Source: Eledone cirrhosa
Taxonomy: Eukaryota
Assembly: GCA_964016885.1 (NCBI GenBank)
Contig: OZ024758.1
Coordinates: forward strand, 13,454,001 to 13,518,000
Direction: 5' to 3'
DNA length: 64,000 nucleotides
Part shown: in pieces, positions 20,861 through 61,199 of the stretch
Layout: each line of letters begins with the position of its first letter
Position numbering within the stretch: the first letter of the stretch is position 1
Notes under the pieces: model-generated
What the model saw: only the letters and a program-made list of their open reading frames with translations
Told to the model about the DNA's origin: nothing
Databases searched by the model: none
Program-made: the position numbers and the translations under genes

Positions 20861-20979
20861 CTACTTCCATGATGATGCTAGCCCACGTCCTATGAGTTTT
20901 TCATGTGGAAACTCCTGCAGTTCCCCTGTTTCGTGTGGCGCAGGCTGTTTTCCACTTTCATTGAATTTAAATTCCTCAA
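20861..20979 (-). CDS. Possible orphan terminal coding exon (EEFKFNESGKQPAPHETGELQEFPHEKLIGRGLASSWK*)
   Basis: Pyrimidine-rich acceptor ttttttcttcttag, open frame, AATAAA about 55 nt after the stop. No family recognised. Confidence 0.3.
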
Positions 20980-21114
20980 CTAAGAAGAAAAAACAATAAC
21001 AGGAATTATTTTTCTTTAGTTAAAAAAAAACTTTCATATACTTTCTTACATTTATCTTCTATACCATTGTGTATATATAATATATATAATATAATATAAT
21101 ATAATATAATATAT

Positions 21115-33986: not shown

Positions 33987-35370
33987 TTATGATTCATGTA
34001 TGTTGAATAACTTTGCTACTTCATGTAAATCTTCACTTTCTACTCCATCTTTTAGAACTTTCCTAGCAATAGGCATCTTATTGAAAACATTCCACAAAAG
34101 AATCCCAACAACTATTTTGTCCCGCAAATAAAAAATTACCCCTTTGCCAAAATTTTCACCAGCTTCAGGCACAGCTAGCTGAGTAGCTGGTATCATGGAC
34201 GGCTTAGCAGTTTCTTCAGTTTCTGATCGAAGACCTTCACCTGTTGCTTCCACAACAGCTTGTGGTGTATCTTTTTCGGTAGCTTTAGCAAAAACTCCAA
34301 CAGTTGATAAATTGGAATCTACAATACCGATTGCTTCATAGCCCACATTTGGTCCAAGATCTGACCAGAACATAGATTGATGCCAATAAGCTTTTCCAGC
34401 ACCAACCATATTTTGCCCAGCCAAACGTCCACTAACAACTGCATGATCATGATGTTCCACTCGACGCCGGCCAAGTTTAATATCATAAAAGCAAGCAGCA
34501 TCACCAGCAGCCCAAACATTAGATCTGGCTTCTAACTCAGAATTTACTCGGAAACCTCCAAATTTATCATCAACTTCAAGCCCAGAAGTTTTAGCTAACT
34601 CAGTATTGGGATCAAGACCAACAGCAACAACAACATGATCAACATCAAGTGATGTCCCATTGTCCAATTCTAGAGATACTTTATTATCCTTCATTACAGC
34701 GTTCTGGACTGTGACATTGGAGCGGACATCAACTCCTTCACTCTCAACCTTGGAAGTGGTCCATAAACTAAGATACTCTGGGAGAACTTTACCCATGTTT
34801 CCATTTTCAGGGAAAACTTGATAAACTTTTAGGTCAGTTAATGTTGACCTCTTCCCTAGGGCACAAGCTAACTCACTACCAAGAAACCCCCCACCAATAA
34901 TAGCTACAGATTTGGCTCCTTCTAAATGTTTATCCAAACTTTGGAAATCATTAATATTTCTAAATAATGTGGTCTTTTCAGATATCTCTGGACCAGCTTG
35001 TGTTAATATCGGTAAATTCTTGGGTTTTCCGCCTGTAGCTATCAAACATTTATCATATTTTATTACAGCGCCATTGTCAAGATATGCTTGGCGTTTGCTA
35101 GCATCAAGCTTCACCACTTTCCGTCCAGACAAAACAGAAACACCTCCATTTTCTTGATACAGTAATTTCTTAGGCTCTACATAAAATGCTTCAGGCTCAA
35201 AGAAAATACTTCTCTCTTTACCATTCCACTGCTTGAATTTCAAGTTCTTAACAGCTGACTTATCCTCACTGAACCAAAGTTCTTTAGAAAGGGGAGGTCG
35301 CATGTAAGGAATATAATTTTCATCTCCGACAACAAGCACCTGAGCCTTAGGGTCAGCAGACCTGATTGAC
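33987..35370 (-). CDS. AIFM1: Apoptosis-inducing factor 1, mitochondrial: exon 2 (FAD/NADH oxidoreductase and AIF_C domains)
   Basis: [77 protein letters not shown]. Acceptor ttgtag at 35371; the phase-2 join gives [19 protein letters not shown]. Confidence 0.97.
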
Positions 35371-36856
35371 CTACAATTAAAGTGGAATATATAATGTAGG
35401 CAGGTTTAGGTGTAGTTTTAAACAATTTAACTTGTTTACATCATAATTCTCATTCCATCCTAACTTTTTACTTAAATTCTAAAATATCCTTTTTTGCTCT
35501 TATTTCATTTTAAAATGTAATTAATCAAAATTATTATACAATACATCCAGGTTCATTAGTCACACAGGTATTCATACAGGTAAGACTGGCAGGATTTCTT
35601 TTTACTCCAAGGATCAAATAAATTAACCTAGATTAGATAATAGTTTAGACATTTTTACGATATAAACTCAAGCTAAGCTTATTGTAAATATTAAATATAT
35701 ATTAATAAATTAATTTTTTAAATGTTCATCACAAAATGAACATTGTAGATTTACACTCAAACATATTCATCTACTTTTTTTTTTTTTTTTTTTTTTAATT
35801 CAATTTTATAGAAAATTGTTATGTAAATATAACAAATACTGTTTTGTACATATATATAATTCTGCAATATTATAAATAAATACATGAAACCTCCAGCAGT
35901 TTTTTCCACATAGCATTAGAATTTTGAGAGAAAAAAAAAAAAGCAAAATTCATATAAAATATGACCAGTTGCAATCAAGCTTTGTTAATTAAGCATGCCA
36001 AGAAATTAGAATGTCTCTCAAAGAAAATTAATACTGATTTATTACAAAGGTAATGACATTTTTGATACATTATTGAAGATAAATAGAAAATTGTGACATT
36101 CAGGCTTGACCCCCTGTGCCACCCTGCCAAAGCTATTATTGTAGTGATCTGAGAGTATATAGTTTTAACTAAGTAAACCCATGTTACAGTTTCAATTCAG
36201 AAGCTTACTACTGATCATGCTTATAGCTATACCACAATACCAACCAACCAACCAAACTTATACACCAAGGTATTATTGTAGTGATCTGAGTAAATAGTTT
36301 TAACCAAGAAAACCTTGGTTACAGTTTCAATATACCACAATTCCAACCAACCAAATAAATACACTAAGCTTCAAATGAGAACTAGAGTGAAAACATATCC
36401 CTTAAATATGATAATTTAAAAAAATCATTGTTAATTAAGCATTTTAATTTGTAGCCAAGAAATGCATAGATATTTTAGGAAATGTGGTTATTTCAAGCTA
36501 TAAATTGCGTTGTAAATGTGGCATTAAATCTGTGCTGAATGGAGTTAGTATTGTGTAGTAGGACGTTTGGTGTTTGGGTAGGAAGGAATGGGTTATATGT
36601 ACACCGCAGAGGTTATGGTATAGAGATCCTGGTTGCCAGAGTTGTAACATAAACTAGGGAATGACAACAGCTGTGGCCTGATGAAGTCCGACACCTCTCT
36701 ACCAAAATGTTTAATTTTATTTCTAATTCTTAATTTTATTGGTAAAATATGAGTTGATGTAATAGATAAGATTATAGCAGCCATTGGCTTTCTATGTGGG
36801 TGATATATCTTTTGTAATTTGTTGTTTTGAAAGATATAAGGTGTGTCACTGGTAGT

Positions 36857-37071
36857 TTAACCCTTTAATGTTCAAACCGGCCAGAATTCTCTACCTCTTT
36901 CTGTTGAAACTGGCTGTAACTGGGTGCTCAAACTGATGTTAAGGTATTGTTCTCAAAATAAATAACATCAAAATCTCATAGATTCGATATTATGTGACAA
37001 AATTATGCAAGGTAAAGCCTTTACCATGAACATATAGTATATATAGAGTAATTTGAATGCTAAAGGGTTAA
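36857..37071 (-). mobile_element. piggyBac-type MITE (AIFM1 intron)
   Basis: TTAACCCTTTA..TAAAGGGTTAA, antisense body. Confidence 0.85.
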
Positions 37072-37134
37072 TGTTTAATTTTATTTGGGTGTTGGTTTGA
37101 GGAATATATAGAGACCCGTATATATATATATATA

Positions 37135-37258
37135 TGATGATTTCTCCTGAATGAAACAGTTCTAGTCCTGTAGAAGCCTTTTCTATATTAAATATTTATA
37201 CTCTGCTTTTAATTGAGTACCTTACTTACTGTGGTTACCCCCGATTGAACCTGGGATA
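37135..37258 (+). mobile_element. Hammerhead element family B, 5'-truncated within the core
   Basis: Begins TGATGA directly after (TA)n; near-identical to 21217-21337. Confidence 0.75.
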
Positions 37259-38059
37259 AACATATATTTATAGTCAGTAAGGTTCAAGTGTGTCAACACA
37301 AATAAAATCAATACACACACACAACCTTCCACTGTTACAAGCTTGGAAAACATTGGTTTTTACCTAATAAAACCCTGCATACTCTCTCATCACAGCATAC
37401 TAACATACCTAATTTGTTTATGAATATGTATATATAAGAGTGTTGGGCTAGAGAATGGTGTATATATATATATTCTGATGCTAGGTCTGCTGTATAAAAA
37501 AAAATCAATGCTGTTATCTCACTCAAGCCTGCATTACCTCAGCTGTGATGCTAAACATTCTCAAGGCTATTTGATTCAAACTAATTTTTCACCTCAGTTT
37601 GAATGACCTTGAGAATGATGAACCCACCAAATACTGAGTATGTATGTAGATAACTTGTTCCCTGCTTCTAAGTAGGTTGATATTATATTATTCAATATGT
37701 GAGACTATGTGTGACCCCCTTATGTGACATGAAGAAAACTATGAGGGTAATTGCTGGGGGTCCATTTGATCATGTGTTACTTTAATTAGGGCAAACTAAA
37801 CATAGGGCTAAAGAACTGCATTAACAACAGTGTATATATTTCATATGATTTATTGATTTATTGATATTTTATCTGAGTGACCCGAATCTTCCGGATCGTA
37901 ATTTTTCGGTCGTATGGTTGATTTTAGACATAATCTATGTGTTGGTATTTTAACGATAGTTATAGCTCTGATTTATCTGAATTATTGAGCCCTCTGCCAC
38001 TCATGTCGAATTTTGTTTATCGTGAACTCGTGCGCCGATTTTTCAATACTCGATTATTC

Positions 38060-38114
<55 letters not shown>

Positions 38115-38888
38115 TCTGTGTGTGTTCAATCATAGGGGACCAAAAACCCACCAGAGTGATGAACATATTAACTACAGAAGGAATGATGTATACAAATCAA
38201 TTAAAAGAATATATTAAAGTGTACTAACCATCCAATTATAACTATAGTTTTGACCCCCTATGATTGAACACATATCTCTATGTGTACTTCTCTCTCTATG
38301 TTGATTTATAAAGAGCCCGGAAGCTATTCCTTGAGCTCATTAAATTATAGGAGATGAATTTAACTCCATTTTTTAATTTGATATAGTAATATAGTTAAGT
38401 TTCTTATTATTTGGAACATGCAATATATTGACTTAATGTTGTCAATAATTTTAGTTACAATCAATAACATTGGAAATTAAATATTTATATAAAATCCATA
38501 TCATTTCAATGTCAATATTTATAAGTATTTAACAGTTGTTAAAGTAGTTCTGACTGAACACAGATTTTAATGTTGATAGAGAAGTCAATAAAAACACTTT
38601 AATCTACTCTAAACCAGTTTCTGACCTCAAGTACTAATCTACCTAGACCAGTTTCTAACTCCAATTATTAATTCATTAGATATCTTTAGTAAACATAATC
38701 AACTTTAGCAACAATTCACTTTACTAGTTAACTTTAAAGATATTAATTGCTGGCCAAGATAGTCCTGCTTTGATAAATCTATTAAAACAAACACACATAT
38801 ATATATATTTAAATATAAGCATTAAACTAATATATTTCTTCCATGTACTGTGTTGTCTGTTTTGTTATTACTTTTACATGTATAAATA

Positions 38889-38919
<31 letters not shown>

Positions 38920-40314
38920 GGAACCTGTTTATTTCAATGGTGGTGCCCCAGCATGACCTCAGCCAGATGGCTGTAACAAGTAAAAGAGTATATATATATT
39001 TGTATATGTATGTAAAAAGTAAACAGAAATAACAACACAATCGGTACAGTATATGGAAGGTATATGGAAGGTTAACGCTTGATATAGCAGGAAGAGGGTC
39101 TTAACGTTTCGGACATAAAGATATATGCACACCAATGACCCCATCAAGAGTTACTGGACCAAAGAAACCCCTAAAACCCCATCAGGAGTTATGGGACCCC
39201 TAAAACTCCATCAGGCATTATGGCACTCCTACAACTTCATTAGTTACACGACCATACCATAATTAAATATACTAACATTACACATTACACAATAGTTTCA
39301 CATATGACAGTTATTCTTTGTGACAACTTTTGTTATTTGATTGTCATTTAATGACAGTTTGTTTTGTTTTGTTTTAATTATTTCTCAACAGATGTTTCTA
39401 TGAATGAAATAAATCTATTTAGTTCAGCAACTGTGACCATAGCAACACTTGATGGGTGTTATCACACAATATGAACAAAAGCATATCTAGGGTATTGAGT
39501 TTTTAGGGTGGTACCTCAGTATGGCTACACTCCACTGGTTAGAACCAGTAAAATCATATAAGAGAGGTCACAAAAGTATGTCGAGAGTATTGAGTTTTCT
39601 GGAGTGGTACCCTGGCATCCAGTGTGGAACTTGTCAATTCGGACCAAGGAAGCAATGTTTCCATTGGCCTTACTCTTGTTGATACTATCTACTGGTCACA
39701 ACACCTGCTAGAAAGAGCAGCATGAAATATCTTGCTTAAGGACATAATGCATCACCTGGTCCAGGAATCAAACTCTCAACCTCACGATTGTGAATCCAAT
39801 TCTCTAACCACTAAGCCATGCACCTTCATTGTAATATAAGACAATGTAAATCAGTGTTATCAGCCATCTTAAATTACCAGTTAAGCCGCTATCCCTACAA
39901 CTATTTTATAATACAAGAGTAAAGTTACTTAGGCAATGTTTCAATAACATAGACACATAAGAGAAAATATTTCTGTTTTATCAAAACTATTCTTTTAGTT
40001 TATCTCATTTCTTTGTTATGAGATAAATTGGGATTCAAATTACTGTGAACTGACCCAAATATTTATTTTAAGATTTTAGATATAACATTAGGTTGCTCTA
40101 TTTAATAAATTTACTAATTTCGGTACAAGGAAGAAACTAGTCCTTAATATTCCGGTTACCCATTTGGCCAGATCTGCCCTAAATATGCAATGATTGGAAG
40201 AAGCAGTCGTTCAGGTATAATCTTTAACCTTTTTTATATACTAACCCACCATTTTAAAGGGTTCCTGTTTAAATTAAAACTTTCCTTTTGTTAAGTTACA
40301 TTGCAAATACCATC

Positions 40315-40531
40315 TTAACCCTTTAGCATTTAAACTGGCCATATCCGGCCAGAATTCTTTTACCCCCTGTCTGTTCAAACCAGCTGTAACTGGCCACTCA
40401 TACTGAGGTTAAGGTATTGTTCTCAAAATAGATAATATCAAAATCTCATAGATTCAATATTATGTGAGGTAAAACCTTCACTGTAAAAATATAATAGTAA
40501 ATATAGAGTAATGTAAATGTTAAAGGGTTAA
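40315..40531 (-). mobile_element. piggyBac-type MITE (AIFM1 intron)
   Basis: TTAACCCTTTAGCATT..TAAAGGGTTAA. Confidence 0.85.
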
Positions 40532-41744
40532 TGAAACAATTTGAATAAATCCCTCCCAATTCTTCATCAATTAATTCAAACACTCATCATCATAAATCCC
40601 TAAATAGGGGTTGGTCCTGTCTGACAGCACTCTTTTGCGTCCCTCTCCATGTGTTTTTGTGCACCAGTCTTACTGTATGTTAATGAAAGGGTTAAACCTA
40701 ACAGTCTTGATATCATAAACTATATATAGGCTAAGAGAGTACTAATTTCTAGTTGGTATCTGACGTAAAGTAGTTTAAGACACCACACTATGTAATAACC
40801 TGTTATGACCTTTAGTAGTTGAACTCCTTTGTATTTTTAAAGTACCAGAATGTACTATAGAGCAGCAGTTAAATATTAAATAAACATTTATGAACAGGAA
40901 GAAAAAGTAGAAAAAAAAACAAAAAAACAACTAAACTACAGAATAATAGGTAAAAATGTTGGTAAATTTTTTTCTTAAATATTTATCAAAATCTTGATAA
41001 TTTTCCATTTGACAGTGAAAAAATATTCCATACCATTAATGATGTGTTAGAAACATTCACTTATATATTATAATCATCATCATTGTCATTATCGTTTTTA
41101 CATCAGCTTTCCCATGTTATGGGTTTGAAATTGGAATCTAAAGACAGGCAACATAAAATATTGAACTTTCCCAAATGCGAGGTTTTTTTAAGGTTTTTTT
41201 TTTTCACCCCCTACATATATTAATTACTTTACTACATTTACCAACCATTTTATTTCTATGTCTTCAATGTTATATATCTTAGTCTATTTCTTCAAATATA
41301 TTTTTGGTGGGGGTGAAGTGGGGGGTGATATTTATTATTTCATTAAGGTTTCTAGTTCCTCAAGAATTAATGCCACAAATATGACAGACAATTGCTACAA
41401 CACAGATTGTGGTGACACTGCTTATGTCCAACAGCATTTCTACTCCATCGTTATAAAATATGATTCAAAATTACTTATAAATTGGAAGAGTATTTCAAAG
41501 GTAAGTTTTATAGATATAAAATACATACAGAATATATTAAAATATCAAAAGTATTGAAAATTGTTAAAATATTCAAAAAAGAAATGGACCTAGTTATATA
41601 AGAAGCCCATAAGTTAAATATTCTTTCTAATATAGGACCCAATTAAAATATTCTTTCTGATATAGGACCCAGTTAAAATATTCAAAAAGGAAATGGACCC
41701 AGTTTTATAAGGTGTCCACAAGTTAAATATTCTTTCTAATATAA

Positions 41745-42560
41745 GCACAAGTCCAGCGATTTCAAGGAAAAGGGGAAGGTCAATTATATGGACCTCAGTA
41801 CATAACAGGTATTTTATTTTATCGACCCTGGAAGAATGGAAGGTAAAGTTGACCTTGGTGGGATTTAAACCCAGAATGTAAAAGACCCAGGAAGAATTGT
41901 ACCCGGCACTCTACCGATTTTGTCAATCCACCTCCTTCAACTTAAAATAATTCCTCACATTGCTACAATGTTATGGTAACCTTGGGAGAAGGTAGAGATG
42001 GGTGATTTACTCGACGACTTCTTCGGTAACTGACAGTCTCTGTAGAACCCAGAGAGAGAGATGGTGGAGGAAGGGTTGAAGATGAAGTCGTCTCGAGTAG
42101 AATGTCAGTATGTATGTGTAACGTAAAAAAAAAAAAAAAAGACTAAGACTTTGTATAGAATTATAAAAATATAGAATCTTAAAACTTAGAATCCAATGAA
42201 CTTCGACAAATATTTGAGAGAAATAATCTTAGTTTCCTCCTAATTCTGATCTCGAGTAATAATTGTTTCTACTTTTGGCACAAGGCCAGCAATTTGGAGG
42301 GGAGGAGAGGGGAAAGTCGATTAAATCGACCCCAGTGCGTTACTGGTACTTTATTTTATCGACCCCTGAAAGGTTAAAAGGCAAAGTCGACCTCATCAAT
42401 AATAATAATAATTTATAATCTAGACACAAGACCAGCAATTTGTGGCGGGGTGGGGGTAAAATCGATAATATCGATTCAAATACATGACAGGTTCTTTCAT
42501 TTTAACGACCTCGGATGGATGAAAAACAAAGTTAACCTCGACGGGATTTGAACTCAGAAC
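41745..42560 (-). mobile_element. Cluster of diverged SINE family 2 copies
   Basis: Antisense ggtactttattttatcgacccc..aaggcaaagtcgacctc motifs at about 41800, 42345 and 42500. Confidence 0.65.
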
Positions 42561-42903
42561 AACTGGGAGAATTGTTGATTTATTTGAGATCAAGTACCAG
42601 TTATGTACGTGGTGGCAGTGATAGTAAACTCCCAGCGAGCAAATGCTTCGACAATAACTTTGCATATATATATATATATATATGGGTTCTGGTGAAGAAT
42701 GGATCGATAATATTGTACTTAATCGATACATGATTTTTCAGCAGTATTCAGTGATCAACTAACCCACCCGATGATTCTTTAATGGCAAAGAAATATTTTG
42801 AATATTGTCAGTTTTAACACACAACATATATATACAAATGGTATATATATATATATATATATACATATATATACACACAACATATATATACAAATGGTAT
42901 ATG

Positions 42904-42945
<42 letters not shown>

Positions 42946-43043
42946 ACATATATATACAAATGGTATATACACACAACATATATATACAAATGGTATATGC
43001 ATGTATATATATATACACACAACATATATATATATATACAAAT

Positions 43044-43082
<39 letters not shown>

Positions 43083-43152
43083 CACACATACATATATAAG
43101 AGCCGTATGATCGTTATATTATACATTGATCTATATATATATATGTATATAC

Positions 43153-43249
43153 ACAGGGTGTCCCAAAAAATGTATACACACTTGGATTGCCAGTACAGGC
43201 AATATTAGAATGCTGTTGAAGTGTGTATACATTTTTTAGGACACCCTGT
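43153..43249. mobile_element. About 100-bp Tc1/mariner MITE
   Basis: TIRs acagggtgtccc / ggacaccctgt. Further copies at 46346-46447, 47689-47789 and 63720-63822. Confidence 0.8.
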
Positions 43250-43529
43250 GTGTATATATGTATATATAAATATAAAGAGCCGCATGATCGTTATATCATA
43301 TATCGATCTCTATATATGTATGTATATATATATATATATATGAATGTGTGTGTGTAATGTACTTTTGTAGATATCTGAGTAACAGGCATCGATTATTGAT
43401 CACAATCTCAACATTTAGCCCAATCAATCATGGGTTTAAAGAAAAAAAAATTATGTGTAGTTCTAAGAAAACGATCTAACCATATATATATATATATATA
43501 TATAAATGAAAGGTATAGAAAACACTGCA

Positions 43530-43567
<38 letters not shown>

Positions 43568-43960
43568 CTGCTTGTCACAGTTTACGAGTGTTTCGCATTA
43601 AACAACGTTAACTATCGAACGAAATCGAAGAGACACAATCGAAACATTTAAACTTACACAAAACAATGTTCTATGAATTTATATATGAAAATCGAAAAAA
43701 GAACATTTATAAATCGTTGAATTTCCACGAGTCCCGCTAGTAGATATATAATAATAATTATTATTGTAAAATTGGGTTAATAAACTATTTCGTTGAAAAA
43801 AAAAACACAAACGTATTCTTCACGGTTCCCCGAAGTTAGGAGAGATTAATGTCTTCTAAATCTAGAGAAGGATATACCTTGTGTGTGTTTGGAGCTTAAT
43901 GAGTGTGTGCGTGTATTAGTAAATAAAAATTCTAAGAAAATTGAATTCAAACTAAAGTGT

Positions 43961-43993
<33 letters not shown>

Positions 43994-44034
43994 AGACCAC
44001 AACAATGTATAAGCGAAGTTAGGCAAAACCATAC

Positions 44035-45332
44035 CTAAATGCTGCAAACGAAGCAGTACCGGCCCCAACTAATAAGTATGGGACGTGCGCAGGGATCTCT
44101 GGGACTTTAGACCAATCAATTGATGCTGCTTTTGGTGTTGGTGCAACAACTTCGGCTGTTGTTGCGGTTACCTCAGGTTTGGGAGTTTCTGGTTCAGCAG
44201 CTACAGGTGAAGGTGGTGGTGGTGGTGCTGTGTCTTCAGCAGGTGCTGCTGGTGTTTCTTCTGCAGGTGGGGGTGGTGGAGGTGTTGTGTCTTCTGGAGG
44301 TGGTGGAGGTGTTGTGTCTTCTGGAGGTGGTGGAGTCTCTTCTACAGGTGGGGGTGGTGTCTCTTCAACAGGTGGAGGTGCTGGTGTGTCTTCTACAGGT
44401 GGTGCAGCCGGCTCTTCTACAGCGGGTGCAGCCGGTTCTTCGGCAACGGGTGCAGCCGGTTCTTCGGCAACGGGTGCAGCCGGTTCTTCGGCAACGGGTG
44501 CAGCCGGTTCTTCGGCAACGGGTGCAGCCGGTTCTTCGGCAGCGGGTGCAGCCGGTTCCTCTACAGCGGGTGCAGCAGCAGCTGGTTCTTCTGCAACGGG
44601 GGCAGCAGCAGCTGGTTCTTCTGCGGCGGGGGCAGCGGGAGCTGGTTCTTCTGCAGCGGGGGCAGCTGGTTCTTCTGGGGCAGGTGGGGCTGCTTCTTCT
44701 GCAGCGGGTGCAGCTGGTTCTTCTGCAGCGGGGGTAGGTGCAGCCGGCTCTTCAACAGCGGCTGGTTCTTCTACTGGAACGACATCCAAATCAGGACTAA
44801 CGGAACTCTCTTCTTCAACAACAGCTTCAGTAGCGGCGGCGGCACTACGTGTTCCACTTAAACCCACTGCTTCTGGCCGTATTGGGATAGATTTTATGAC
44901 AGGTCCTGTATTCCACGAGAAACAATTCGTTTTATACATTACAAAGACGGTAACTGCCAAAACGGCGGAACTAGTGGCTAAGAGGATATTGTTTTTGTTG
45001 TCAGCAGCTTTGAATGCCTCTTTCCAAGAACCTTGGGGTACGGGTAAATCATCCATCCTACTTTTTTGTTGCAAGTCGATTTCTTTATCAGTTTTGTCTG
45101 ATCCATAACCAGACATATATCGAATAATTGTCATATTGGCGGCAGCAGCAGAAGATGAAGAAGATGAAGCAGTTTCATGTCTAGAAATACCAAGTAGTTC
45201 ATTATTTTTCAAATACGTTGAAAGGGTAGAGGACGGTTGCTTAGATGACGAAGGTCGAAAACGACAACCCGTATTGTAAAACCTCCGTAGCGTATTCCTG
45301 CTTTGACATGGACTGACAGCACAACGATACAT
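44035..45332 (-). CDS. AIFM1: AIFM1 exon 1 (mitochondrial presequence, Deltameth_res-like TM segment, Pro/Ala/Glu spacer, start of FAD fold)
   Basis: Arg/Ser-rich N-terminus. Ends HVPYLLVGAGTASFAAF-AG|GTATGG, in frame with exon 2. Spliced CDS is 2682 nt, 893 aa. Confidence 0.92.
44400..44775 (-). repeat. Coding 24-bp tandem repeat (EEPAAPVA) in AIFM1 exon 1
   Basis: gggtgcagccggttcttcggcaac repeated perfectly about four times, with variants on both sides. Confidence 0.9.
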
Positions 45333-45439
45333 ATTTGTTTCCTTCTTATATCTAATTAATATATATGTGTGTGTATATACAGATGTATATAGATGTATAT
45401 TCTGCGATTATTAATTAGTGGTAATAACCGAGAAGGAGC

Positions 45440-53051: not shown

Positions 53052-53389
53052 ATATATATATATATAATCCATTATAAATTTGAATGTCTGAGAAATAGAG
53101 ATTTCAAAAGAAGTTATTCGTAACATGAAAACAACAAAATATGTTTCAGATCATTGAATTCTCCAGCAATGATAAACTTTGGTTATACTCTAGAGTTTCA
53201 TTAAACTTTACACCACAGCTTACGATGGAATCCATTATGGTATGGTATGTTCTGGTCCCCCATAACTCCTGAGGGAGCGCTAGGGATGCTGTAGTAGCAT
53301 ACAGCGTTTCTTGAAAATTTTAAGTTTTGCTGAACCCATCTCTCCAGGTCTGAACACAGATTTCTTCAAAGAAAGTGATACAGAGGAAG

Positions 53390-59957: not shown

Positions 59958-60129
59958 ATATCTTTATATATATATATATATAGTGCTGGTGGCACAAATA
60001 ATGCACCCAGTCCACTCTGTAAAGTGGTTGGTGATAGGAAGAGCATCCAATCAGAAAAAAAAAAACCCTACCAAAATTATGGAAATTATGTTAATTAAGT
60101 TACAATAATTGATTAATTAATTTAATTAC

Positions 60130-60978
60130 CTGTAGATTTGTGTTGATACGTTCATTTGCACATTTGTTTACCTTTATTCTACACCATCCTTTACAATCAA
60201 AAAATGAACAATCTTCATCTTTGTTGCAGGATCTGTTATGAAACATCTGTCTGACTGTAGTATCCCTTAAGATGCAGTCCGTATCGATTAGTTTCACTTG
60301 GTTGTTAGCGTCACTTATTCCAAAGTTCTCTGGTTTCACATCACACAAATGAAGCGGCTCGTGATAGTCCGAGTCCAGAGCACGAACGACATCAAGGATG
60401 GCAAGAGCAAGCTTTACACGGCCCGGCCATCCACCTTCAACTACAGAAGAGTAGAAAATCTTGGGAGGTGGAGCACTCTCCACTGCATACATATAGCCAC
60501 AGGTTCCATGGAGGTGAGGAATGTACGGTAGATGTTGACTCATTCGCAACATCAAGTACTCTTCTTGTTGTATCAAAGACCACACACTATCCATTAAGAT
60601 ATGGGGGGCCTCGTCGTATCCTTTCATTGTCTGCATAAATGCTTGCGGGTTCATTGACCACACCTGTTCAATTACATCTATCCCTTTTGTTAAGTTTATT
60701 CCAAGGTTCATGGAAACCGAATCCTGAATTAATCTACGAAATAATCCCAATTCTGGATATTCCACTTGACCATCTAATTTGAATGATATTGTGTTGAAAT
60801 TCTTAAATTTGTGTTGGGAAGACTTCAGAATCAGTGGATGCTCATGTCTCTCTGACCTGGCTATTATCACCACTTTACCTTCACGGTAGTTCGTGCAATG
60901 ATCATATTCTATTGCTTTCGTCTCACATATGGAAGAACAGAGGTTGCCACCAATTATTCTCTGTTGGTATAAATCACA
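60130..60978 (-). CDS. DIPK1: DIPK1/FAM69 middle exon (divergent kinase domain)
   Basis: CDLYQQRIIGGNLCSSIC, WSLIQQEEYL, GTCGYMYAVE, HLCDVKPENFG, KLIDTD, CNKDEDCSFFDC. Bounded by ttttcag and CAG|GTAATT. Confidence 0.92.
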
Positions 60979-61199
60979 CTGAAATAAATAAGAAAGAAAA
61001 ATTATGTAGAGAATGGATAGTTTAAACGAGAAACCAGGCTATAAAGATATATATGTAAAAGTAATAACAAAAATAATAAAACAAACAGCACAGTACATGG
61101 AAGAAATATATTAGTTTAACGCTTGAAATAGCAGGAAGAGGGTCTTAACTTTTCATGAAGAAGACTACACAAAACAATCGTTTGGTAAATTTATACCTT

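What the first reader, a model, noticed from the sequence alone, without database searches (positions are those of the whole stretch)
44901..45056. AIF membrane anchor resembles a Deltameth_res/COX7B-like subunit: possible complex IV-AIF fusion
Seen: residues 93-144 read MDDLPVPQGSWKEAFKAADNKNNILLATSSAVLAVTVFVMYKTNCFSWNTGP. From memory, the M.DLPVP.GSW...N..L-TM pattern is the Deltameth_res (prag01) domain of small invertebrate mitochondrial proteins, which has been proposed as the insect COX7B homologue. Mammalian AIF has been reported to associate physically with cytochrome c oxidase. Inference: this AIF could be covalently tethered to complex IV through a COX7B-like module, a Rosetta-stone fusion.
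Basis: partly seen in the sequence, partly recalled or inferred. Interest (0 to 1): 0.75.

Follow-up and report, generated by a model that had tools for sequence, protein, structure and literature searches.

The report
AIF anchored by COX7B-like module
In this octopus relative the mitochondrial protein AIF carries a copy of a small complex IV subunit (COX7B-like) as its predicted membrane anchor, which likely tethers it to complex IV; the fusion was reported in 2022, but it is widespread in invertebrates and probably reaches sea urchins and starfish.

Summary
Observation confirmed. Window 45053-44901 (-) encodes Pfam Deltameth_res (E 5e-12, above cut-off) within exon 1 of a two-exon, 893-aa AIFM1 gene. 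Docking of the fused module is untested (about 0.6).

Not found in my searches of the literature:
(1) the fusion looks like the rule: 14 of 16 named protostome AIFs, the other two being N-truncated models;
(2) this genome also keeps a stand-alone three-exon COX7B-like gene, and in gastropods the two genes are linked;
(3) fused and free modules keep the same conserved columns (rho 0.75) and interleave in a tree (AU p 0.004 against one fused clade);
(4) echinoderm AIF anchors also resemble COX7B (hhalign 92%; 0 of 150 shuffles), hinting at a bilaterian-age fusion;
(5) one sample splices exon 1 to a distal exon, giving a module-plus-linker isoform without the FAD core.
No earlier scan note covers this.

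The parts
44035..45332 (-). AIFM1 coding exon 1 (aa 1-432): presequence, COX7B-like module, linker and first strand/helix of the FAD domain in one open frame
   Evidence: donor GT at 44034
45117..45332 (-). Predicted mitochondrial presequence, aa 1-72 (10 R/K, 2 D/E, 21 S/T); cleavage likely just before Met73
   Evidence: composition; Arg two residues before the Met in most homologues; cleavage inferred
44895..45116 (-). COX7B-like module, aa 73-146, homologous to the mature stand-alone COX7B-like protein
44901..45053 (-). Pfam Deltameth_res match, aa 94-144
   Evidence: (E 5.1e-12)
44934..44990 (-). Predicted single transmembrane segment, about aa 115-133
   Evidence: highest Kyte-Doolittle window of the protein, 1.84; inside the long helix of the AlphaFold model, pLDDT 90-96 there
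44121..44894 (-). Pro/Ala/Glu-rich repetitive linker, about aa 147-404; longest of 23 fused AIFs measured
   Evidence: 272 residues by the script's measure; 31-69 in 17 of 22 others, 138-240 in 5
35371..44034 (-). Single coding-region intron (8,664 nt, GT-AG, phase 2)
   Evidence: spliced contig in run X1
33987..35370 (-). AIFM1 coding exon 2: the rest of the FAD/NADH domains and AIF_C, without introns
20950..20979 (-). Start of a distal alternative exon (AG acceptor at 20980); joined to exon 1 it gives a stop after residue 433. Only these 30 bases of a 1,770-base contig were seen
   Evidence: one run, one sample

Best explanation
This gene encodes an AIFM1 flavoprotein whose N-terminal part is a duplicated COX7B-like (Deltameth_res) subunit that likely serves as its inner-membrane anchor and likely plugs into the COX7B site of a share of complex IV. 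Steps: (1) shown: one open frame joins presequence, module, linker and AIF core across one intron; (2) predicted: import, cleavage near Met73, matrix-side P-x-P-x-G-S-W segment, one transmembrane helix, AIF core in the intermembrane space, the same topology as COX7B-like subunits; (3) inferred: the module competes with the stand-alone COX7B-like protein (gene on C12) for the same site, so there would be AIF-tethered and AIF-free complex IV; (4) inferred: the long flexible linker lets the NADH-sensing AIF dimer sit beside complex IV as a scaffold rather than as an electron donor, and cleavage in the linker would release AIF and leave the subunit in place.
For: Pfam match above cut-off over the full model. 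All 7 invariant or near-invariant columns of a 56-sequence alignment are kept in the window's module. Column conservation of 23 fused against 52 stand-alone modules correlates, Spearman 0.75 over 56 columns, including the matrix-side motif that a plain anchor would not need. The module is 55% identical (40 of 73) to the cuttlefish orthologue against 37% (25 of 67) for the presequence. 14 of 16 named protostome AIFs carry it, in four phyla. Fused modules group with stand-alone subunits of their own lineage in Daphnia (97/88) and arthropods (97/90), as co-evolution with a shared partner would give. The fly member co-purifies with COX4 (PMC9346487, passage); the Anopheles member clusters with complex IV (bioRxiv 2023.04.10.536322, passage); about 10% of bovine complex IV carries AIF dimers (PMC8488679, passages).
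Against: No experiment shows a fused module in complex IV. The genome has a complete stand-alone gene that can fill the site. The octopod fused module has drifted: only 26 of 58 residues match its own paralogue, it lacks the P-x-H-W stretch and the Tyr/Trp before the conserved Asn, and its end branch is 0.62 against a median of 0.32. In the bovine model AIF's own helix packs on COX2, NDUFA4 and COX6B1, and COX7B touches only the second protomer's C-terminus, so the mammalian complex is not built the same way. Lineage-wise grouping can also come from repeated duplication or gene conversion between neighbouring genes. The trees rest on 56-76 columns with unsettled bootstraps.
Confidence: 0.6

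Rival explanations
1. The module is only a borrowed targeting and stop-transfer cassette. A COX7B-like gene copy next to AIF donated its presequence and helix; the fused module no longer docks in complex IV, and its likeness to the free subunit is kept by gene conversion or repeated duplication.
For: Stand-alone and fused genes share a contig in 6 of 6 gastropod species where both were found, judged by equal contig lengths, with near-consecutive accessions in Haliotis rufescens. A free subunit exists here. The octopod module is divergent.
Against: In this genome the two genes lie on different contigs (C19, C12) and are 45% identical, so ongoing conversion is unlikely, yet the matrix-side motif is intact. 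Vertebrate AIF works with a plain anchor lacking that motif, so targeting alone does not need it.
Confidence: 0.25
2. The gene works as a polyprotein or two-product gene: linker cleavage, or the distal splice, supplies a COX7B-like subunit, while AIF acts detached from complex IV.
For: Run X1 joins exon 1 to a distal exon that stops the frame after residue 433. Two cuttlefish-like records end in a 16-residue tail after the same junction that is neither exon 2 nor the intron read-through (P0131 on 7 contigs, P0160). The linker is long and low in complexity.
Against: One sample only here; the tails in octopod and cuttlefish are unrelated (no match in the window). The short form still carries a 270-residue linker and a stub of the FAD fold, unlike any known subunit. 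Full-length fused products are on record in the cuttlefish cluster.
Confidence: 0.12
3. The fusion is an assembly or gene-model artefact.
For: The linker is repetitive, and no laid contig spans the whole of exon 1.
Against: Same architecture on 21 of 120 listed homologues from many independent sources; spliced exon 1-exon 2 contig; 797-aa single-contig orthologues in the cuttlefish cluster; published UniProt examples.
Confidence: 0.02

Closest known systems
CG7630(COX7BL)-AIF fusion proteins named by Brischigliaro et al. 2022 (PMC9346487): Octopus A0A7E6EJ31, Daphnia A0A0P5E3W8, barnacle A0A6A4VL42
   Same: Same architecture, same animal group and same proposed meaning (AIF-complex IV partnership).
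   Different: The paper reports 'a number of instances' and tests none. Here the fusion appears in 14 of 16 named protostome AIFs, coexists with a free copy, and may extend to echinoderms, whereas the paper treats deuterostome AIF and COX7B as separate.
Drosophila CG7630 / COX7BL (Pfam PF16020 Deltameth_res)
   Same: Full-length Pfam match; conserved motif and helix; predicted topology.
   Different: CG7630 is a free small subunit. The window's copy is the N-terminus of an 893-aa flavoprotein; the direct counterpart of CG7630 here is the C12 gene.
Mammalian AIFM1 and the COX-AIFM1(2) complex (Hevler et al. 2021, PMC8488679)
   Same: FAD/NADH and AIF_C core, E 5e-202; presequence plus single helix.
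   Different: The vertebrate anchor is PF14962 AIF-MLS and does not match the module; binding is non-covalent, on the COX2/NDUFA4/COX6B1 side, in about 10% of complex IV.
Vertebrate COX7B (Pfam PF05392)
   Same: Weak, in-register similarity over the helix and the following aromatic-x-x-x-P motif.
   Different: Below the Pfam cut-off; lacks the roughly 20-residue matrix extension of the protostome family.

Membership tests
AIFM1 (mitochondrial AIF) | Pyr_redox_2 plus AIF_C domains with high similarity to human AIFM1 | tested here: met
AIFM1 (mitochondrial AIF) | N-terminal presequence followed by one transmembrane helix | tested here: met
   composition and hydropathy, model; prediction only
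AIFM1 (mitochondrial AIF) | NADH-induced dimer that binds CHCHD4/MIA40 | not testable with these tools
   recalled property; papers seen as search listing only
Deltameth_res / COX7BL (PF16020) | Score above the curated cut-off over the whole model | tested here: met
   45.8 bits against 27; positions 1-51 of 52
Deltameth_res / COX7BL (PF16020) | Conserved P-x-P-x-G-S-W, Asn and Leu columns before and in the helix | tested here: met
   7 of 7 columns at 90% or more kept
COX7BL as a complex IV subunit | Small free-standing protein of about 100 residues | tested here: not met
   the window's copy is fused; the C12 paralogue (101 aa) meets it
COX7BL as a complex IV subunit | Co-migrates and co-purifies with complex IV | not testable with these tools
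Vertebrate-type COX7B (PF05392) | Score above the curated cut-off | tested here: not met
   11.7 bits against 27, E 0.22; nothing over the cut-off in the genome
Vertebrate-type COX7B (PF05392) | Same fold as solved COX7B | tested here: inconclusive
   a single long helix; Foldseek 0 matches, VIA-align best Z 4.2 on unrelated helices

The most novel reading that the evidence does not exclude
The AIF-COX7B fusion is ancestral to Bilateria: it survives in most protostomes and in echinoderms, and was lost or eroded in chordates, hemichordates and flies. Free COX7B/COX7BL subunits were split off from AIF's membrane anchor, perhaps more than once, which would explain where this bilaterian complex IV subunit came from and make the loose mammalian AIF-complex IV complex a relic of a covalent tether.
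Probability: 0.3. Interest if true: 0.72.

Novelty: already known. Interest (0 to 1): 0.42.

Why it matters
The AIF-complex IV association is real in mammals but its purpose is open (PMC8488679, section 8). A natural covalent version with a free paralogue beside it makes the question testable: swap or mutate the module, and ask what AIF gains by sitting on complex IV. If echinoderm anchors are COX7B homologues too, the origin of COX7B and the history of AIF's anchor become one problem. The core observation itself is not news.

Tried and rejected
Fold searches with the 81-residue model were uninformative: Foldseek gave 0 matches and VIA-align only generic helices, best Z 4.2. A five-sequence mollusc profile found nothing in the PDB. 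Complex prediction of the module with COX4 was not available, so binding has no structural test. The look-up of sequencing runs listed no RNA holder; run X1 is taken as RNA-derived only because its contigs join at GT-AG junctions. Reads were laid on exon 1 only, and 44540-45340, which holds the module, had no cover in any of the 4 runs; this proves nothing. Contig depths were not used to rank the isoforms. Alternative splicing of one locus as the source of both free and fused forms was rejected: same-species pairs are only 42-56% identical in 8 of 8 comparisons. A second AIFM1 gene was not found: of 2 AIF_C matches the other lies on a simple repeat. Vertebrate and hemichordate AIF anchors do not match the module (3.7%; no COX7B or Deltameth_res hit in 6 of 6). 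Results against the echinoderm lead: in the PDB COX7B ranks only 6th of 10 (E 0.87), behind COX4 and unrelated proteins; 4 of 6 anchors miss each Pfam family; the Atlas gave no usable hit. The cuttlefish short-isoform tail has no counterpart in the window. Paper searches: Deltameth_res 0 papers; COX7BL 1; AIF+COX7B+fusion+protostome 1; COX7B+sea urchin+AIF 0; COX7B+AIF+echinoderm 2 off-topic listings; one search listed nothing further on the point. Scan notes: none relevant.

Full report
Observation. The 52 residues quoted are exactly what window 45056-44901 encodes on the minus strand. They are residues 93-144 of a frame from ATG 45332. Pfam Deltameth_res matches aa 94-144 at E 5.1e-12, 45.8 bits against a cut-off of 27; Pfam COX7B matches only at E 0.22.

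Gene. Exon 1 (45332-44035) holds a basic presequence, the module, a Pro/Ala/Glu-rich linker and the start of the FAD fold. One GT-AG intron leads to exon 2 (35370-33987), giving 893 aa. Exon 2 is AIFM1. Run X1 holds a contig joining the two exons; its overlaps are 32 and 25 letters, short of the tool's 31-on-both-sides rule but what a fork in an assembly graph gives. It is the only credible AIF_C locus of 2 matches. By similarity the animal is an octopod cephalopod. A cuttlefish orthologue has the same intron and a continuous 797-aa product.

Prior art. PMC9346487 (seen: find passages, sections 9 and 10, and a term search of 5 supplementary files) shows that Drosophila CG7630, a Deltameth_res protein, is the COX7B homologue. 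It names CG7630-AIF fusions in barnacles, Octopus and Daphnia and proposes that they mirror the mammalian AIF-complex IV complex. PMC8488679 (seen: passages and section 8) found about 10% of bovine complex IV bound to AIF dimers, modelled AIF's helix against COX2, NDUFA4 and COX6B1, and judged direct electron transfer unlikely. A bioRxiv preprint (passages) places the Anopheles orthologue in the complex IV cluster.

Distribution. Of the 120 best homologues listed (of 3,313), 21 carry PF16020: 14 of 16 named protostome proteins (molluscs, a nemertean, an annelid, a horseshoe crab, Daphnia), 0 of 90 named deuterostome rows and 7 of 14 unnamed. The two protostome misses are N-truncated models. 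A profile of 42 short, presumed stand-alone proteins scores those 21 at 40-112 bits and the other 91 of 112 N-termini tested at 10.2 or less. Insects, nematodes and non-bilaterians were not sampled; the paper says the fly proteins are separate.

Free paralogue. The genome has a second Deltameth_res locus on C12: three exons, 101 aa, ending in a stop with no AIF sequence in the 52.7 kb examined. Its second exon is 45% identical (26 of 58) to the fused module. In 6 of 6 gastropod species where both genes were found they share a contig, judged by equal contig length, and Haliotis rufescens accessions are two apart; Nucella has a further stand-alone gene on another scaffold. Three genomic read-through records closest to chiton, nemertean and gastropod AIFs break at the position of the free gene's second intron, which the cephalopod fused gene lacks. 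Inference: tandem duplication beside AIF, then relocation with intron loss in cephalopods.

Constraint. The window's module keeps all 7 columns conserved at 90% or more. Conservation in 23 fused and 52 free modules correlates (rho 0.75, 56 columns). In trees (41 rows by 76 columns; 39 rows by 56 columns after dropping two long unnamed rows; P0018 left out as truncated) fused and free modules interleave. Daphnia fused plus free group at 97/88, arthropods at 97/90, Haliotis at 91/88 (98/87). One fused clade is rejected, p-AU 0.004. Few columns and unsettled bootstraps limit this. Co-evolution with complex IV, gene conversion and repeated duplication all fit.

Echinoderm lead. The best residual scores were echinoderm anchors, in register with the human COX7B hit. 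For six such anchors (five named, one unnamed; chosen after seeing the scores, ends cut by eye) the Pfam hits were COX7B (2 of 6, best E 0.018), Deltameth_res (2 of 6, E 0.056) and one DUF. Profile comparison with the free-subunit alignment gave 92%, E 5.5e-7, against 3.7% for six vertebrate and hemichordate anchors. None of 150 within-segment and 150 full column shuffles reached the score (33.9 against at most 19.2), and the reversed profile gave 17%. Against: PDB rank 6 of 10 and no Atlas hit. I put homology at about 0.75. Echinoderm and vertebrate-hemichordate anchors match each other at 56%, which leaves open that all AIF anchors and COX7B share one origin. Non-bilaterian AIFs would set the direction and could not be fetched.

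Core-less isoform. A 1,770-base contig of X1 joins exon 1 to an AG acceptor at 20979, which ends the frame at residue 433. Only 30 of its distal bases were seen, in one sample. Two cuttlefish-like records end in a different short tail at the same junction. Function is unknown; it may be noise.

Mechanism. Shown: the fusion, the free paralogue and the conserved motif. Predicted: import, cleavage near Met73, one helix at about aa 115-133, core in the intermembrane space. Inferred (0.6): the module takes the COX7B site in a share of complex IV and holds AIF there on a long leash as a scaffold or NADH sensor. Main rival (0.25): a borrowed anchor that no longer docks.

Verdict. Real, and already known at its core. 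The breadth, the paired genes, the coupled evolution and the echinoderm match were not found in the paper searches, which cover only open-access text. Interest 0.42.

Noticed in passing
window 20979 downwards (-): Distal alternative exon joined to AIF exon 1 in run X1. Another frame of it is open for about 39 codons to a stop at 20862, followed by AATAAA signals; no upstream exon using that frame was found.
   Followed up: partly
window 60103-61038 (-): Large exon of a FAM69/DIPK kinase gene (PIP49_C E 5.5e-39) upstream of AIF; a candidate further exon begins at 53363.
   Followed up: no
window 44019-44034 (-): Read-through into the AIF intron gives the same four residues and stop as a decapodiform record (P0155), so the first 15 intron bases may be conserved or a retained-intron form may exist.
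   Followed up: no
window 45352-45360 (-): An AG 19 bases before the ATG, after an AT-rich tract, may be the acceptor of an upstream non-coding exon.
   Followed up: no
window 44121-44894 (-): The linker is built of short tandem A-E-E-P-A-A-P-type repeats; long Pro/Ala/Glu linkers also occur in cuttlefish, Daphnia and Lineus AIFs, apparently independently.
   Followed up: partly
proteins P0301, P0302, P0166, P0015 (Nucella lapillus): Two scaffolds each carry a pair of Deltameth_res genes; one pair includes the AIF fusion, the other two short genes three locus tags apart.
   Followed up: no
L012-L014 (G000:C1:340392293-340397230): The genome's COX4 gene, three exons matched by Pfam.
   Followed up: partly
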